Source: a virus
Taxonomy: Duplodnaviria; Heunggongvirae; Uroviricota; Caudoviricetes
Direction: 5' to 3' (one strand)
Virus record (IMG/VR): IMGVR_UViG_2713897055_000008
Coordinates: 1-11,556 of that record
Length of the DNA: 11,556 nucleotides
The translations under genes were made by a program, and so were the position numbers. The notes under the pieces are model-generated. The model saw only the letters and a list, made by a program, of their open reading frames with translations. It ran no database searches and had not been told where the DNA came from. Below, one piece after another: positions 3 through 11,556 of the stretch. The first letter of the stretch is position 1. Each line of letters begins with the position of its first letter.

Positions 3-491
<489 letters not shown>

Positions 492-8222: not shown

Positions 8223-8966
8223 ATGACACAGACTGAATCAGCGATTCTGGCGCATGCCCGGCGGTGTGCGCCAGCGGAGTCGTGCGGCTTCGTGATAAGC
8301 ACCCCGGAGGGGGAGCGGTACCAGCCCTGCGTGAATATCTCCGCAGAGCCGGAGGCGTATTTTCGTATTGCGCCGGAGGACTGGCTGCAGGCACAGATGC
8401 AGGGGGAGATTGTGGCGCTGGTCCACAGTCATCCCGGTGGTCTGCCCTGGCTGAGCGAGGCGGACCGGCGGCTGCAGATAAAGAGTGCCCTGCCCTGGTG
8501 GCTGGTCTGTCGGGGTGAAATTCACCGGTTCCGCTGTGTGCCGCACCTGACCGGACGGCGCTTTGAACACGGTGTGACGGACTGTTACACCCTGTTCCGG
8601 GATGCATACCATCTGGCGGGGATAACGCTGCCGGATTTTGTGCGTGAGGATGACTGGTGGCGCAACGGCCAGAACCTGTACCTGGACAACCTGGCGGACA
8701 ATGGATTTTACCGGGTGTCTCCGTCCTGTGCACAGGCAGGCGATATCCTGCTGTGCTGCTTTGGCGCATCGGTGCCGAATCATGCCGCCATTTACTGTGG
8801 CAACGGTGAACTGCTTCACCATATACCTGAACAACTGAGTAAACGGGAGAGGTATTCTGAAAAATGGCAACGACGAACGCATTCTGTCTGGCGTCACCGC
8901 CACTGGTCCACATCTGCCTTCACGGGGATTTACAACGATTTGGTCGCCGCATCAGTCTGTATGTGA
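8223..8966 (+). CDS. K: Tail tip assembly protein K (JAMM/MPN plus NlpC/P60 domains)
   Basis: ATG 8223 (MTQTESAILAHARR...); JAMM motif HSHPGGLPWLSEAD at 8424-8465; NlpC/P60 catalytic Cys (GVTDCYTLF) at 8583-8585 with downstream His. The frame stays open to TGA 8964-8966, overlapping I by 103 nt. Confidence 0.85.
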   Translation: MTQTESAILAHARRCAPAESCGFVISTPEGERYQPCVNISAEPEAYFRIAPEDWLQAQMQGEIVALVHSHPGGLPWLSEADRRLQIKSALPWWLVCRGEIHRFRCVPHLTGRRFEHGVTDCYTLFRDAYHLAGITLPDFVREDDWWRNGQNLYLDNLADNGFYRVSPSCAQAGDILLCCFGASVPNHAAIYCGNGELLHHIPEQLSKRERYSEKWQRRTHSVWRHRHWSTSAFTGIYNDLVAASVCM

Positions 8967-9508
8967 ACACGGCAGCGGAGGCCATCCGTGCCCTGTCGCA
9001 GCAGGTGCCGGGATTCCGCTGTCAGATGAACGAAGGCTGGTACCAGATACGTATTGCCGGTGAGGATACCGCGCCGGACCAGATATCGCCCCGACTGCAT
9101 GAGCCACTGAACCCGGGGGATGTCATTCATCTGGTTCCCCGGGCAGAAGGTGCCAAAAGTGGCGGAGTGTTTCAGGCCGTGCTTGGCGTTGCGCTGGTTG
9201 CGGCAGCTATCTGGATGCCGGGTATCGGTATTGCAGCCAGCAACATCATGTTTTCCATGGGCTCTGCAATGGCACTGGGTGGTGTGGCCCAGATGCTGGC
9301 CCCGAAGGCAAAGACGCCGGAGTACAAAAGCACGGATAACGGCAGACAGAACACGTATTTTTCGTCACTGGACAACATGATTGCTCAGGGGAATCCGGTG
9401 CCGGTGCCTTACGGTGAAATGCTGGTTGGTTCACGACGGATATCCCAGGACATCAGCACCCGTGATGAGGGCGGTGACGGGAAAGTGGTGGTTATCGGGC
9501 GGGGATGA
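8864..9508 (+). CDS. I: Tail tip assembly protein I
   Basis: ATG 8864 is the first start after in-frame stops; 214 aa; N-terminus (...ICLHGDLQRFGRRI...AEAIRAL...) and C-terminal region (KSGGVFQ...NTYFSSLDNM...VVVIGRG) resemble lambda gpI as recalled. Confidence 0.88.
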   Translation: MATTNAFCLASPPLVHICLHGDLQRFGRRISLYVNTAAEAIRALSQQVPGFRCQMNEGWYQIRIAGEDTAPDQISPRLHEPLNPGDVIHLVPRAEGAKSGGVFQAVLGVALVAAAIWMPGIGIAASNIMFSMGSAMALGGVAQMLAPKAKTPEYKSTDNGRQNTYFSSLDNMIAQGNPVPVPYGEMLVGSRRISQDISTRDEGGDGKVVVIGRG

Positions 9509-9512
9509 AAAT

Positions 9513-9547
9513 AAAAAAAAATCCCGCAGTGCTCTGTAGCTGCGGGA
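9513..9547 (-). terminator. Intrinsic-terminator-like element, minus-strand orientation (unit 1)
   Basis: Stem TCCCGCAG (9522-9529) / CTGCGGGA (9540-9547), 10-nt loop; on the minus strand it is followed by nine T (9513-9521). Confidence 0.55.
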
Positions 9548-9644
9548 AGAGATACGAAGATTAACTTTAAGGAATTTTTCATTATTCTGGCAGATGAACT
9601 GTAACGCAGCGTGATTATGAGCACTACAGTCAGTGTGCGGAAAT

Positions 9645-9671
9645 GTGAATAAACTCAGAATTTTTATTCAC
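9645..9671. repeat. Perfect 9-bp inverted repeat GTGAATAAA-N9-TTTATTCAC (unit 1)
   Basis: Read directly; degenerate in units 2 and 4. Confidence 0.5.
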
Positions 9672-9734
9672 GGGAAGGGAGGGGCCGGATATCGGTGGCA
9701 GAGGACAGAAGGCATCATGCCGGGTTCAGGGGAT

Positions 9735-9767
9735 AAAAAAAATCCCGCAGTACTCCGTGCTGCGGGA
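9735..9767 (-). terminator. Intrinsic-terminator-like element, minus-strand orientation (unit 2)
   Basis: Stem 9743-9750 / 9760-9767 (same 8-bp sequence as unit 1), 9-nt loop; eight T on the minus strand (9735-9742). Confidence 0.55.
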
Positions 9768-9958
9768 AGAGAACGATGTTGACTAACCTGTTGGCGTTTT
9801 ATTTTTATTGACCCGAAGAAACTGTAACCTGCCGGAATGCACTCTGCCACGGAGAATGACGGAAAATGTGAAGAAAATCAGAGTTTTTATTTATCCCGTA
9901 CATTCGTCTCTGGCGACAGAGTGGCGTCAGTAATGTCCGTGATACTGAGGGGGGAATT

Positions 9959-9997
9959 AAAAAATCTCCCGTAATACACCTGGATATTGACGGGAGA
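9959..9997 (-). terminator. Terminator-like hairpin, minus-strand orientation (unit 3, variant stem)
   Basis: Stem TCTCCCGT (9965-9972) / ACGGGAGA (9990-9997) with an inner AATA/TATT extension; six T on the minus strand (9959-9964). Different stem sequence from the other units but same fold. Confidence 0.4.
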
Positions 9998-10099
9998 AAC
10001 GAATAGTCACCTTAAGGAGTAGTTTTGATTATTGCCTGTAATCAGCGGGCGAATTGTAACGTATGGTGATTATGAGTGCCACAGGTAATTTGCAGAAAT

Positions 10100-10126
10100 G
10101 TGAATAAATTCAGAATTTTTATTCAC
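10100..10126. repeat. Perfect 9-bp inverted repeat GTGAATAAA-N9-TTTATTCAC (unit 3)
   Basis: Read directly; identical arms and spacing to the unit-1 copy. Confidence 0.5.
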
Positions 10127-10188
10127 AGGAAGGGGCTGCGGGATATCGGTGGCAGAGGACAGAAAATATCAGGCCGGGTTTAAGGGAT

Positions 10189-10222
10189 AAAAAAATCCCG
10201 CAGAGTCAGCGGAGCTGCGGGA
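10189..10222 (-). terminator. Intrinsic-terminator-like element, minus-strand orientation (unit 4)
   Basis: Stem 10196-10203 / 10215-10222 (TCCCGCAG/CTGCGGGA), 11-nt loop; seven T on the minus strand (10189-10195). Confidence 0.55.
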
Positions 10223-10395
10223 GAGAACGATGAAGATTAACGTTATGGAGTTATTTTTCAGGCATCAAAAAAGTAACGCAGCGTCATTATTGCGGCTACA
10301 GGCAATTTGCAGAAATGTGAAGAATTTCAGAAATTTTATTCCGTCATGACACAGGCACCTCCGGGGTGCCTGTTGTTTTTGGGCATAAACAGATT

Positions 10396-10422
10396 CAGAC
10401 ATCAGACATCAGACATCAGACA
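10396..10422 (+). repeat. Heptanucleotide microsatellite (CAGACAT) x ~3.9 just upstream of the J ribosome-binding site
   Basis: Read directly: cagacat cagacat cagacat cagaca, followed by GGAGAGGGGG and the GTG start at 10438. Confidence 0.8.
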
Positions 10423-10437
10423 GGAGAGGGGGACAGA

Positions 10438-11556
10438 GTGGGTAAAGGGGGCGGCAAGGGGCACACACCGCGTGAGGCGAAGGACAATCTCAAATCCACG
10501 CAGATGATGAGCGTGATTGATGCCATTGGTGAGGGACCGGTGGAAGGCCCGGTGAAGGGACTGCAGAGTATTCTGGTGAACAAAACCCCGCTGACGGACA
10601 CGGACGGTAATCCCGTGATACACGGTGTGACCGCCGTCTGGCGTGCCGGGGAGCAGGAGCAGACACCGCCGGAAGGCTTTGAGTCCTCCGGGGCAGAAAC
10701 CGCACTGGGCGTGGAGGTGTCGAAGGCAAAGCCGGTGACGCGCACCATCACGTCAGCGAACATTGACCGTCTGCGGGTCACCTTCGGGGTGCAGTCACTG
10801 GTGGAGACCACCTCAAAGGGTGACCGTAATCCCTCTTCTGTCCGCCTGCTGATTCAGCTTGAGCGTAACGGTAACTGGGTGACGGAGAAGGATGTCACCA
10901 TTAACGGCAAGACCACCTCGCAGTACCTGACGTCGGTGATTCTGAATAATCTCCCTGAGCGCCCCTTTAACATCCGGATGGTCAGGGAGACGGCGGACAG
11001 CACCACGGACCAGCTGCAGAACAGAACGCTGTGGTCGTCATACACCGAAATCATCGATGTGAAACAGTGCTACCCGAACACGGCCATTGTGGGGCTGCAG
11101 GTGGATGCGGAGCAGTTCGGTGGCCAGCAGCTGACGGTGAACTACCATATCCGTGGTCGCATCATTCAGGTGCCGTCAAACTATGACCCGGAAAAACGCA
11201 CCTACAGCGGTATCTGGGACGGCAGCCTGAAACCGGCATACAGCAATAACCCGGCCTGGTGCCTGTGGGACATGCTGACCCACCCGCGCTACGGGATGGG
11301 AAAACGCCTGGGGGCCGCGGATGTGGACAAGTGGGCACTGTATGCCATCGGGCAGTACTGCGACCAGACGGTCCCGGATGGTTTCGGGGGCACAGAGCCG
11401 CGGATGACCTTTAATGCGTACCTGTCACAGCAGCGTAAGGTGTGGGATGTCCTGGGGGATTTCTGCTCGGCGATGCGCTGTATGCCGGTATGGAACGGTC
11501 AGACGCTGACGTTCGTTCAGGACCGTCCGTCGGATGTGGTGTGGCCGTACACGAAC
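10438..11556 (+). CDS. J: Tail tip / host specificity protein J, N-terminal 373 codons (continues past window end)
   Basis: GTG 10438 preceded by GGAGAGGGGG. Translation (M)GKGGGKGHTPREAKDNLKSTQMMSVIDAIGEGPVEGPV...WCLWDMLTHPRYGMGKRLG... is near-identical to the lambda J N-terminus as recalled. Absent from the ORF track because there is no stop inside the window. Confidence 0.93.
   Translation, partial: MGKGGGKGHTPREAKDNLKSTQMMSVIDAIGEGPVEGPVKGLQSILVNKTPLTDTDGNPVIHGVTAVWRAGEQEQTPPEGFESSGAETALGVEVSKAKPVTRTITSANIDRLRVTFGVQSLVETTSKGDRNPSSVRLLIQLERNGNWVTEKDVTINGKTTSQYLTSVILNNLPERPFNIRMVRETADSTTDQLQNRTLWSSYTEIIDVKQCYPNTAIVGLQVDAEQFGGQQLTVNYHIRGRIIQVPSNYDPEKRTYSGIWDGSLKPAYSNNPAWCLWDMLTHPRYGMGKRLGAADVDKWALYAIGQYCDQTVPDGFGGTEPRMTFNAYLSQQRKVWDVLGDFCSAMRCMPVWNGQTLTFVQDRPSDVVWPYTN

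What the first reader, a model, noticed from the sequence alone, without database searches (positions are those of the whole stretch)
9509..10437. Roughly 930-bp AT-rich array of four tandem hairpin-bearing units between tail-tip genes I and J
In lambda, as I recall, I and J are essentially adjacent; here they are separated by ~930 bp of non-coding DNA that is visibly more AT-rich than the flanking genes. It consists of four diverged ~220-230-bp units. Each unit ends in a GC-rich hairpin that, on the minus strand, is followed by a 6-9-nt T-tract, which is the form of a rho-independent terminator. Four same-orientation antisense terminators each preceded by ~190 bp of conserved sequence could be a tandem family of minus-strand small RNAs, an insulator against antisense transcription into the tail operon, or a structured RNA decoy array. 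I cannot identify promoters by eye, and the hairpins lack a downstream U-tract on the plus strand.
Basis: partly seen in the sequence, partly recalled or inferred. Interest (0 to 1): 0.8.

Follow-up and report, generated by a model that had tools for sequence, protein, structure and literature searches.

The report
Four stacked prophage small-RNA genes
The 930-bp gap between phage tail genes I and J holds four diverged copies of a known but poorly studied prophage small-RNA gene (PasB/EcOnc22 family), each with its own promoter and terminator; such stacking has not been described for this family.

Summary
Window 9509-10437 is a GC-poor spacer between tail assembly gene I (ends 9508) and tail-tip gene J (starts 10438). 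It is built of four diverged ~220-230-bp direct repeats, each ending in a minus-strand intrinsic terminator.

The units are not a new kind of element. Each is a homologue of the single I-J spacer of EPEC E2348/69, which encodes PasB, an 83-nt Hfq-dependent sRNA validated by Northern blot and RIL-seq. The same spacer in EHEC Sakai prophages Sp11, Sp14 and Sp15 gives the Hfq-bound RNAs EcOnc22/23/24 (~85 nt).

A covariance model built only from single-copy loci hits the window exactly four times, all on the minus strand (79.6, 78.7, 46.8 and 26.0 bits).

Every unit keeps three features:
- a CRP-like site (9 of 10 matches to TGTGA-N6-TCACA) at a fixed 48 nt from a TAnnnT -10 hexamer;
- a U-rich, anti-Shine-Dalgarno-like body;
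- a terminator followed by 6-9 U.

The family and its location are known. The tandem stacking is new: 2-, 3- and 4-gene arrays occur in about 160 of 5,426 complete E. coli genomes, whereas a 2026 preprint reports no tandem Pas copies. The inferred CRP control is also new. Expression of units A-C is untested.

The parts
8864..9508 (+). Tail assembly protein I gene (214 aa); left boundary of the array
   Evidence: ORF. Annotated 'tail assembly protein' in near-identical genomes. Used as query.
9513..9592 (-). Predicted sRNA A (~80 nt): 5' body with AAUUCCUUAAAGUUAAUCUUCGU, terminator CCCGCAG..CUGCGGG, then 9 U
   Evidence: Covariance-model hit 9591-9515, 78.7 bits, E 3e-14. Coordinates, fold. 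The 5' end is inferred from the mapped PasB 5' end.
9598..9659 (-). Promoter block of unit A: CRP-like site 9644-9659 (TCTGA-N6-TCACA) and -10 hexamer TACAGT 9598-9603
9684..9741 (.). Connector between units A and B, repeated at 10138-10195 (88% identity). On the + strand it reads ..RISVAEDRRHHAGFRG*, possibly a relic of the 3' end of an I gene
   Evidence: Repeat D3. Translation and recurrence in other arrays. No phage match.
9736..9815 (-). Predicted sRNA B (~80 nt), the most diverged body (AACGCCAACAGGUUAGUCAACAUCGU), then 8 U
   Evidence: Covariance-model hit 9816-9736, 46.8 bits, E 7e-8..
9821..9882 (-). Promoter block of unit B: CRP-like site 9867-9882 and -10 hexamer TACAGT 9821-9826
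9960..10047 (-). Predicted sRNA C (~88 nt): body ACUCCUUAAGGUGACUAUUCGU and a different, longer terminator stem (CCCGUCAAUAU..GUAUUACGGG), then 6 U
   Evidence: Covariance-model hit 10038-9960, 26.0 bits, E 9e-4, from a model that excluded C-type sequences..
10053..10114 (-). Promoter block of unit C: CRP-like site 10099-10114 and -10 hexamer TACAAT 10053-10058
10138..10195 (.). Connector between units C and D; second copy of the 9684-9741 element (+ strand reads ..GISVAEDRKYQAGFKG*)
10190..10264 (-). Predicted sRNA D (~75 nt). It differs by one terminator-loop base from the sRNA of Sakai prophages Sp15 and Sp14 (EcOnc22/23)
   Evidence: Covariance-model hit 10268-10189, 79.6 bits, E 2e-14..
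10270..10331 (-). Promoter block of unit D: CRP-like site 10316-10331 and -10 hexamer TACTTT 10270-10275
10351..10383 (+). Plus-strand intrinsic terminator between the array and J. It is conserved in most I-J spacers and shows a compensatory stem variant
10395..10422 (+). 7-nt tandem repeat TCAGACA x4 directly before the J ribosome-binding site; copy number is 2-4 elsewhere
10438..11556 (+). 5' part of tail-tip/host-specificity gene J (GTG start; MGKGGGKGHTPREAKDNLKSTQ...); right boundary

Best explanation
The spacer is a head-to-tail stack of four separate small-RNA genes of the PasB/EcOnc22 family, all transcribed antisense to the phage late tail operon.

Reading each unit on the minus strand:
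1. A CRP-like site, T(C/A)TGA-N6-TCACA.
2. Exactly 48 nt after the centre of that site, a TAnnnT -10 hexamer with only a weak -35. This is the layout of a class I activator-dependent promoter.
3. A transcript of about 75-90 nt. Its largely unstructured 5' body carries a conserved CUCCUU / GUUAAUCUUC block that is anti-Shine-Dalgarno-like. A U-rich stretch, a GC-rich terminator hairpin and a 6-9 U tail follow, which together form the standard Hfq-binding module.

Inferred mode of action. In the lysogen the RNAs bind Hfq and base-pair in trans with host and prophage mRNAs, as PasB does in RIL-seq. Because the four bodies differ (52-71% identity), the array probably supplies four partly non-redundant seeds under one shared signal. 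That signal is probably cAMP-CRP, meaning carbon limitation or stationary phase.

Origin. The array was assembled by recombination between diverged alleles from different prophages, not by recent in-place duplication.

What is shown and what is inferred. Shown here: homology, architecture, genomic context and copy-number variation. Taken from papers: expression and Hfq dependence of the E2348-type and D-type RNAs. Inferred: expression of units A-C, CRP control, trans targets, and non-redundancy of the four RNAs.
For: Homology to validated sRNAs.
- PasB is 83 nt, runs 1466343-1466261 on the minus strand of NC_011601, is Hfq-dependent, was confirmed by Northern blot and has 37 RIL-seq partners. 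It lies exactly between I (ends 1466255) and gpJ (starts 1466496).
- All four window units align to that whole spacer.
- In EHEC Sakai, EcOnc22/23/24 are Hfq-CRAC peaks. EcOnc22 gave a ~85-nt Northern band and was destabilised in the hfq deletion strain. The peaks lie in the I-J spacers of Sp15, Sp14 and Sp11, antisense to the tail genes.
- After correcting a coordinate offset of about 128 nt between genome versions, calibrated on AgvB, the EcOnc22 peak covers the predicted sRNA body. That RNA differs from window sRNA D by 1 nt.

Membership of each unit. A covariance model built from 21 sRNAs of single-unit loci gives exactly four significant window hits, all on the minus strand and all full length.

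Conserved gene architecture.
- Among the 66 distinct units found beside I-protein homologues (loci not selected by the motif), all 66 match the CRP core at 9 of 10 positions, and all have TAnnnT 48 nt (rarely 49 nt) downstream of the site centre.
- The only matches to the CRP core with at most 1 mismatch in the 11.5-kb window are these four (0.38 expected).
- All four RNAs fold with a terminator hairpin and a mostly open 5' body.

Expression pattern. PasB is higher in overnight static LB than in exponential DMEM, while the sRNA Spf (Spot 42) shows the opposite pattern. Spf is known from earlier work, not from these calls, to be CRP-repressed.

Recurrent arrays. In I-anchored loci the copy number is 1 in 48 loci, 2 in 8, 3 in 1 and 4 in 8. 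Among 5,426 complete genomes, 79 hold the 4-unit array, 34 a 2-unit array and 46 a 3-unit array.

Origin. Each unit is closer to a standalone gene in another prophage than to its array siblings.
Against: - There are no transcript data for this array, or for the A, B and C unit types. Only the E2348 type and the D type have Northern or Hfq evidence.
- Unit C scores only 26 bits, and unit B has lost much of the conserved body motif.
- The -35 regions are poor, so the promoters depend on an activator that I have only inferred.
- With the RNA-seq-mapped PasB 5' end, the CRP-like site centre falls at about -59.5 to -60.5, which is 1-2 bp off the canonical -61.5. Its left half is TCTGA, not TGTGA.
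- The LB-versus-DMEM contrast also differs in growth phase and oxygen, so it is equally compatible with other regulators.
- No Rfam family exists for cross-checking.
- RNAalifold on an ordinary MAFFT alignment found no consensus structure, because the terminator arms are misaligned between subtypes.
- High conservation of the CRP-like motif in the first sample is partly due to how that sample was found (searched for the motif itself).
Confidence: 0.8

Rival explanations
1. Only one gene works. [quoted passage not shown] Units A-C are decaying leftovers of recombination between prophage I-J junctions and make little or no RNA.
For: The array looks like a product of recombination: a conserved connector that resembles the end of an I gene, and each unit closest to a standalone allele elsewhere. 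B and C score much lower against the family model. Only unit D keeps the upstream plus-strand terminator context seen at single-copy loci.
Against: All four units keep the CRP-like site, the exact 48-nt spacing, a TAnnnT hexamer, an intact terminator stem and at least 6 U. Neutral relics at 52-81% identity would be expected to lose some of these. B-like and C-like genes exist as the sole gene in other prophages. The same four-unit array is kept at 97.6-99.5% identity in the 30 listed of the 79 genomes, and sits next to two different I alleles.
Confidence: 0.15
2. The array acts in cis on the phage. The four convergent promoter-terminator units, or their antisense RNAs, modulate the late I-J transcript, for example by RNase III processing of sense-antisense duplexes, by transcriptional interference, or by insulation against antisense read-through into the tail operon.
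For: The RNAs are perfectly complementary to the I-J intergenic part of the late transcript. The terminators face the tail operon. The position is strictly conserved between I and J.
Against: The sRNAs overlap neither the I coding sequence nor the J ribosome-binding site; sRNA D ends about 170 nt upstream of the J start. PasB has 37 trans partners on Hfq in an uninduced lysogen. The same slot holds an unrelated cargo gene (sodC) in other phages, which points to a cargo site rather than a tail-operon control element. Lambda-type tail operons work with a short I-J gap (from memory).
Confidence: 0.1
3. The array is a sponge or anti-sRNA set. Like AgvB and AsxR, the variable 5' parts mimic mRNA targets and titrate core sRNAs rather than regulating mRNAs directly.
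For: Prophage-encoded anti-sRNAs exist in the same phage group. The 5' ends are hypervariable, A-rich and CA-rich. One PasB-sRNA-region chimera is listed in RIL-seq.
Against: There is no sequence or Rfam relationship to AgvB or AsxR. The genomic slot is different: PR' versus I-J. The most conserved body segment is anti-SD-like, which is typical of mRNA-targeting seeds. I found no GcvB-PasB pair, although that search was crude.
Confidence: 0.07
4. The units are generic host intergenic repeats, small protein-coding cargo genes, or plus-strand structured RNA.
For: The DNA is repetitive, hairpin-bearing and AT-rich. Mechanical ORFs of 52-71 aa overlap the region.
Against: The units are found only next to J in tail modules. 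A scan of one genome per species found none outside two tiny contigs. The ORFs have no Pfam match, and indels between family members are not in multiples of three. The hairpins lack a plus-strand U-tract, and plus-strand covariance-model hits are not significant.
Confidence: 0.02

Closest known systems
PasB sRNA of EPEC O127:H6 E2348/69 (Pearl Mizrahi et al. 2021, PMC8550237; Zhu, Shabalina and Storz 2026 preprint, doi 10.64898/2026.05.13.724894)
   Same: Same slot (I-J spacer, antisense to the tail operon) and same upstream motif. The -10 and the TSS are predicted from sequence, and the TSS fits the mapped PasB 5' end. Same body motif and same terminator. The whole spacer aligns to each window unit, and PasB-type sequences were part of the covariance model that hits all four units.
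   Different: PasB is a single gene in a 240-bp spacer; here four diverged paralogues fill 930 bp. [quoted passage not shown] The window sRNAs share only about 60-75% identity with PasB in the body.
EcOnc22/EcOnc23/EcOnc24 of EHEC O157:H7 Sakai (Tree et al. 2014, PMC4104026, Table S2)
   Same: Hfq-crosslinked RNA of about 85 nt, destabilised without Hfq, in the I-J spacers of Sp15, Sp14 and Sp11. The sequence differs from window sRNA D by one base.
   Different: One copy per prophage. Targets are unknown. Neither Pas paper links them to PasB: the 2021 table lists no EHEC homologue for PasB and the 2026 preprint does not mention EcOnc. My equation of the two rests on position, sequence and an inferred coordinate offset of about 128 nt.
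Tandem 'sibling' sRNA genes: OmrA/OmrB (E. coli), PrrF1/PrrF2 (Pseudomonas), LhrC1-4 (Listeria)
   Same: Head-to-tail paralogous Hfq-type sRNA genes, each with its own promoter and terminator, with similar regulatory regions and partly different seeds. (This comparison is from general knowledge; OmrA/B and PrrF1/2 are cited as such.)
   Different: Those are chromosomal core-genome loci thought to have arisen by local duplication. Here the array sits inside a prophage late operon, and each member is closer to a standalone allele in another phage than to its neighbours.
Prophage anti-sRNAs AgvB and AsxR
   Same: Short Hfq-binding RNAs carried as cargo by lambdoid and Stx prophages, with a conserved 3' part and a variable 5' part.
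   Different: Different locus (downstream of PR', not I-J), shorter (51-60 nt), and no sequence or Rfam match in the window.
sodC cargo gene ('moron') in the I-J spacer of other lambdoid prophages
   Same: Same insertion slot, same antisense orientation and its own terminator. In those loci sodC replaced the upstream half of a PasB-like unit but left the sRNA body and terminator.
   Different: It is protein-coding cargo, not an sRNA array.

Membership tests
PasB/EcOnc22 prophage sRNA family | Sequence and structure similarity of the ~80-nt RNA to family members | tested here: met
   Covariance model R1, built from 21 sRNAs of single-unit loci, hits D at 79.6 bits, A at 78.7, B at 46.8 and C at 26.0 (E 2e-14 to 9e-4). 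There are no other significant hits in the window.
PasB/EcOnc22 prophage sRNA family | Located between tail genes I and J, antisense to them, with the terminator abutting the I stop codon | tested here: met
   In the motif-ascertained sample, 106 of 121 loci are flanked by both genes.
PasB/EcOnc22 prophage sRNA family | Expressed as a discrete ~80-nt Hfq-dependent RNA | not testable with these tools
   Shown in papers only for the E2348 type and the D type. There are no data for the A, B or C types, or for this array.
PasB/EcOnc22 prophage sRNA family | One copy per prophage (a property described in the 2026 preprint, not a strict definition) | tested here: not met
   Four copies here. Arrays of 2, 3 and 4 occur in 34, 46 and 79 complete genomes, against a reported minimum copy distance of 28,355 bp.
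Hfq-dependent trans-acting sRNA (canonical module) | Rho-independent terminator hairpin, a tail of at least 6 U, and a U-rich stretch just upstream | tested here: met
   U tails are 9, 8, 6 and 7 nt. Upstream stretches are UCUUCGUAUCUCUU, CAUCGUUCUCUU, AUUCGUUUCU and CUUCAUCGUUCUCU.
Hfq-dependent trans-acting sRNA (canonical module) | Base-pairs with trans mRNAs through an accessible seed | not tested
   The conserved CUCCUU/GUUAAUCUUC block is mostly unpaired in centroid folds. PasB has 37 RIL-seq partners. No target prediction was done for the window RNAs.
Class I CRP-dependent promoter | Match to TGTGA-N6-TCACA | tested here: met
   9 of 10 positions in all four units, and these are the only such sites in the window. 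66 of 66 distinct units in the I-anchored sample also match.
Class I CRP-dependent promoter | Site centred near -61.5 (or -71.5 and so on) with a weak -35 | tested here: inconclusive
   The centre is 48 nt upstream of the TAnnnT hexamer. That gives about -60.5 with a standard hexamer position, or -59.5 with the RNA-seq-mapped PasB 5' end. The true TSS has not been mapped precisely.
Class I CRP-dependent promoter | CRP binding and cAMP dependence | not testable with these tools
   There is only a compatible expression pattern: PasB up in overnight LB, Spf down.
Any Rfam family (including AgvB, AsxR, STnc100, IsrG, Esr41) | Score at or above the gathering threshold | tested here: not met
   No hits at gathering thresholds. 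Only chance-level hits at E of at least 1.4. As a positive control, AgvB and STnc100 were found in Sakai.
Generic host intergenic repeats (REP/ERIC-like) | Dispersed at many unrelated chromosomal sites | tested here: not met
   Always adjacent to J in a tail module. Absent from species-representative genomes apart from two tiny contigs.

The most novel reading that the evidence does not exclude
The I-J junction of lambdoid prophages is an expandable sRNA cassette site. Recombination between co-resident prophages, using a conserved ~55-nt connector that may derive from the 3' end of an I gene, stacks up to four anciently diverged PasB-family genes. All four keep one shared cAMP-CRP-responsive promoter design but carry different seeds. 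The prophage would thereby plug a multi-seed, carbon-status-controlled regulatory module into the host Hfq network, and array length (1-4) would be a strain-variable trait in STEC and other E. coli.
Probability: 0.3. Interest if true: 0.6.

Novelty: new variant of a known kind. Interest (0 to 1): 0.42.

Why it matters
PasB/EcOnc22 is among the more abundant Hfq-bound prophage RNAs in EPEC and EHEC, yet its function is unknown and it has no Rfam family. Genome annotation therefore leaves this spacer blank.

If the analysis holds, it matters in four ways:
- Some E. coli, many of them STEC from cattle and patients, carry two to four diverged paralogues in tandem. That changes the picture of how prophage sRNA repertoires grow: by stacking within one prophage as well as by acquiring more prophages.
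- It unifies PasB with EcOnc22-24.
- It gives a concrete, testable regulatory hypothesis (CRP) and a set of natural seed variants for mapping targets.
- It marks the I-J junction as a cargo slot shared by sRNA genes and sodC.

Tried and rejected
- Rfam at gathering and at permissive thresholds: nothing meaningful.
- AgvB/AsxR lead, recalled from memory: rejected. Those genes lie downstream of PR', are 51-60 nt, and do not match the window.
- Tandem Repeats Finder and the simple terminator and promoter scans under-call the array.
- RNAalifold on a plain MAFFT alignment of 75 family members gave no consensus structure, because the terminator arms of the subtypes misalign. I used single-sequence folds and a hand-given terminator structure for the covariance model instead.
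- Alternative promoter using the TATAAT-like box 20 nt further upstream: rejected. The box is absent in the B, S001 and S007 types, it would give an RNA of about 105 nt rather than the observed 83-85 nt, and it would put the CRP-like site at a non-canonical -44.5.
- Palindrome GTGAATAAA..TTTATTCAC as an operator: present only in units A and C, not family-wide.
- Junction peptides as relics of an I C-terminus: tblastn against 50,697 phage records found nothing, so this remains a weak inference.
- Exact-motif scan of one genome per species: only two tiny contigs in unrelated taxa, probably contamination.
- Attempt to pull PasB-GcvB pairs or PasB targets from the RIL-seq tables by phrase search: no result.
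- ORFs inside the spacer: no Pfam match.
Full report
**1. The observation**

Window 8864-9508 (+) is a 214-aa ORF, and a GTG at 10438 opens a reading frame beginning MGKGGGKGHTPREAKDNLKSTQ. In E. coli genomes that match this stretch at 97.6-99.5% identity, the two genes are annotated 'tail assembly protein' and 'gpJ: phage attachment tail tip protein J'.

The 929 bp between them has GC 0.41-0.50, against 0.55-0.63 on both sides. Repeat finding gives a 47-nt core present four times with spacings of 223, 232 and 217 nt, plus longer A-C and B-D pairs. The four units align at 63% mean column identity. Tandem Repeats Finder misses them because identity is below its limit.

Each unit ends on the minus strand in a GC-rich hairpin followed by 9, 8, 6 or 7 T. 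A 28-nt motif shared by the units occurs 4 times where shuffles give 0.00.

**2. What the units are**

Rfam has no family for them. My first lead, the prophage anti-sRNA AgvB, was wrong: AgvB and AsxR lie downstream of PR' and are unrelated in sequence.

The literature gave the answer. Pearl Mizrahi et al. (PMC8550237, Table S6) describe PasB, an 83-nt sRNA of EPEC E2348/69 at NC_011601 1466343-1466261 on the minus strand. It was validated by Northern blot, was strongly reduced in the hfq deletion strain, and has 37 RIL-seq partners. In the RefSeq record that interval lies exactly between the tail assembly protein (ends 1466255) and gpJ (starts 1466496). The 240-bp E2348 spacer aligns along its whole length with each of the four window units.

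Tree et al. (PMC4104026, Table S2) list EcOnc22, EcOnc23 and EcOnc24 in Sakai prophages Sp15, Sp14 and Sp11. EcOnc22 gave a Northern band of about 85 nt and was destabilised without Hfq. All three Hfq peaks fall in the I-J spacers, on the strand opposite the tail genes.

The published coordinates refer to an older genome version. The Rfam AgvB hit in NC_002695.2 lies 128-140 nt to the right of the published AgvB peak. With a +128 shift the EcOnc22 peak covers the predicted sRNA body. That RNA differs from window sRNA D by a single loop base. PasB and EcOnc22-24 therefore appear to be one family, a link neither Pas paper makes.

**3. Formal membership**

I collected 121 loci from IMG/VR by the shared motif and 80 more by homology to the I protein, the latter independent of the motif. 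From these I extracted 75 distinct predicted sRNAs of 75-93 nt.

A covariance model was built from 21 of them. All came from loci with a single unit, and C-type sequences were excluded. With filters off, the model finds exactly four significant matches in the 11.5-kb window, all on the minus strand and all full length:

| Unit | Window coordinates | Bits | E-value |
|---|---|---|---|
| D | 10268-10189 | 79.6 | 2e-14 |
| A | 9591-9515 | 78.7 | 3e-14 |
| B | 9816-9736 | 46.8 | 7e-8 |
| C | 10038-9960 | 26.0 | 9e-4 |

**4. Anatomy of a unit (minus strand)**

In all 66 distinct units of the I-anchored sample there is a T(C/A)TGA-N6-TCACA element, a 9-of-10 match to the CRP core TGTGA-N6-TCACA with the 3' flank TTT. 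A TAnnnT hexamer begins 48 nt (rarely 49 nt) after the centre of this element. The four window copies are the only matches to the CRP core with at most 1 mismatch in the window (0.38 expected).

The mapped PasB 5' end lies 5-6 nt after the hexamer. This supports the hexamer as the -10 and puts the CRP-like centre at about -59.5 to -60.5. The -35 region is poor. Together this is the design of a class I activator-dependent promoter (established knowledge: class I CRP sites centre at -61.5, -71.5 and so on).

A TATAAT-like box further upstream is not conserved. It would also predict an RNA of about 105 nt rather than the observed 83-85 nt.

The transcript has four parts:
- a hypervariable A-rich 5' end;
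- a conserved block (AACUCCUUAAnGUUAAUCUUCnU) whose CUCCUU is complementary to a Shine-Dalgarno sequence;
- a U-rich stretch;
- a terminator with 6-9 U.

Terminator stems vary between subtypes while still pairing: CCCGCAG/CUGCGGG, CCCACAG/CUGUGGG, and the longer CCCGUCAAUAU../..GUAUUACGGG of unit C.

Predicted window coordinates are:

| Unit | CRP-like site | -10 hexamer | sRNA (5' to 3', minus strand) |
|---|---|---|---|
| A | 9659-9644 | 9603-9598 | about 9592 to 9513 |
| B | 9882-9867 | 9826-9821 | about 9815 to 9736 |
| C | 10114-10099 | 10058-10053 | about 10047 to 9960 |
| D | 10331-10316 | 10275-10270 | about 10264 to 10190 |

**5. Copy number and origin**

In the I-anchored sample, 72 loci include both I and J:

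| Units in spacer | Loci | Spacer length |
|---|---|---|
| 1 | 48 | 242-351 bp (most 242-269) |
| 2 | 8 | 424-492 bp |
| 3 | 1 | 718 bp |
| 4 | 8 | 910-923 bp |
| 0 complete units | 7 | 860 bp |

The 860-bp spacers carry a minus-strand sodC gene. It replaced the upstream half of a unit but left a -10-like element, the sRNA body and the terminator.

The two- and three-unit arrays have at least five different unit compositions. The four-unit array occurs next to two I alleles that are 99% and 77% identical to the window's.

Among 5,426 complete E. coli genomes, 79 hold the four-unit array, 34 one two-unit array and 46 one three-unit array. None of 50,697 phage records holds the four-unit array, although 93 hold a unit.

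Each window unit is closer to a standalone gene in another prophage than to its array neighbours:

| Unit | Best match in a single-unit locus | Best match among array siblings |
|---|---|---|
| A | 81% over 163 nt | 76% over 141 nt |
| B | 79% over 160 nt | partial matches only |
| C | 78% over 171 nt | 76% over 141 nt |
| D | 99% | 74% |

The array is therefore a stack of old alleles, not a recent duplication.

The A/B and C/D junctions share a 55-58-nt connector at 88-89% identity. The same connector recurs in other arrays. It translates to a peptide ending ..G(F)(R/K)G*, loosely like the C-terminus of I, but a tblastn search found no source.

The units are never found away from J in a tail module. 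A scan of one genome per species found essentially nothing outside E. coli-type prophages. This agrees with the Escherichia/Shigella restriction reported by Zhu et al..

**6. Likely mechanism and rivals**

Best supported: four independent sRNA genes expressed from the lysogen. Their RNAs bind Hfq and pair in trans with host and prophage mRNAs through the conserved, largely unpaired block and its variable surroundings.

Pairwise identity among the four units is 64-81% in the promoter block, 52-71% in the sRNA body and 63-85% in the terminator. This fits shared regulation with partly different target specificity.

CRP control is an inference. It is compatible with PasB being higher in overnight static LB than in exponential DMEM, while Spf (Spot 42), which is known to be CRP-repressed, shows the opposite pattern. 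Those two conditions also differ in growth phase and oxygen.

Rivals:
- Only D is functional and A-C are relics. Against this, every promoter and terminator feature is retained in all four units.
- A cis role on the late I-J transcript. Against this, the RNAs overlap neither the I coding sequence nor the J ribosome-binding site, PasB has trans partners on Hfq, and the slot also holds sodC in other phages.
- A sponge role like AgvB. There is no similarity to AgvB.
- Generic repeats, small ORFs or plus-strand RNA. These are refuted.

**7. Comparison with what is known, and novelty**

The family (PasB; EcOnc22-24) and its position are already published, so this is not a new kind of element. What I did not find in the papers read:
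- Tandem arrays. The 2026 preprint reports a minimum of 28,355 bp between pasB copies, finds Pas genes typically in single copy per prophage, and contrasts Pas genes with tandem pairs such as OmrA/B and PrrF1/2.
- The equivalence of PasB with EcOnc22-24.
- Any promoter or CRP analysis.
- The shared use of the I-J slot by sodC and the sRNA.

I rate this a new variant of a known kind, of moderate interest.

Noticed in passing
window 10351-10383 (+): A plus-strand intrinsic terminator (ACAGGCACC-TCCGG-GGTGCCTGT, then TGTTTTTGGG) sits between the sRNA array and J, inside the late operon. It is conserved in most I-J spacers and has a compensatory stem variant (CACC/GGTG versus CATC/GATG). Its role is unknown; it may block read-through into J in lysogens.
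   Followed up: partly
window 10395-10422 (+): A perfect 7-nt tandem repeat, TCAGACA x4, lies directly upstream of the J ribosome-binding site GGAGAGG. In other loci the copy number is 2 (35 distinct contexts), 3 (3) or 4 (2), so it is a small variable-number repeat in the J 5' leader.
   Followed up: partly
L161 3150-4050 (also L160, L180, L196, L199, L200, L202): An 860-bp I-J spacer carries a minus-strand Cu/Zn superoxide dismutase (sodC) gene with its own terminator. It replaced the CRP-like and upstream half of a PasB-like unit but kept a -10-like element, the sRNA body and the terminator. The I-J junction is therefore a shared cargo slot.
   Followed up: partly
window 9684-9741 and 10138-10195: The connector between units (88% identical copies) reads ..RISVAEDRRHHAGFRG* and ..GISVAEDRKYQAGFKG* on the plus strand. 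This loosely resembles the I C-terminus ..RRISQDISTRDEGGDGKVVVIGRG*. It also occurs in 2- and 3-unit arrays elsewhere. No phage record encodes such a peptide.
   Followed up: partly
L035 ~600-1100: In one IMG/VR contig an IS3-family insertion sequence is inserted into the unit a few bases after the CRP-like site, separating promoter from sRNA.
   Followed up: no
window 162-454 (+): A 162-bp tandem repeat (1.8 copies, 93% identical) lies inside a coding region near the start of the window, presumably a duplicated protein domain in a head or tail gene.
   Followed up: no
L002 (Asaia platycodi, 546-bp contig) and L003 (Parendozoicomonas haliclonae, 460-bp contig): The only exact motif hits among the species-representative genomes are on tiny contigs of unrelated bacteria. 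This looks like E. coli or prophage contamination of those assemblies.
   Followed up: no
NC_002695.2 versus Tree et al. 2014 Table S2: Published Sakai sRNA coordinates are about 128-140 nt lower than positions in the current RefSeq version. AgvB is at 1941920-1941981, against the published peak at 1941783-1941835. Anyone mapping EcOnc RNAs onto NC_002695.2 needs this offset.
   Followed up: partly
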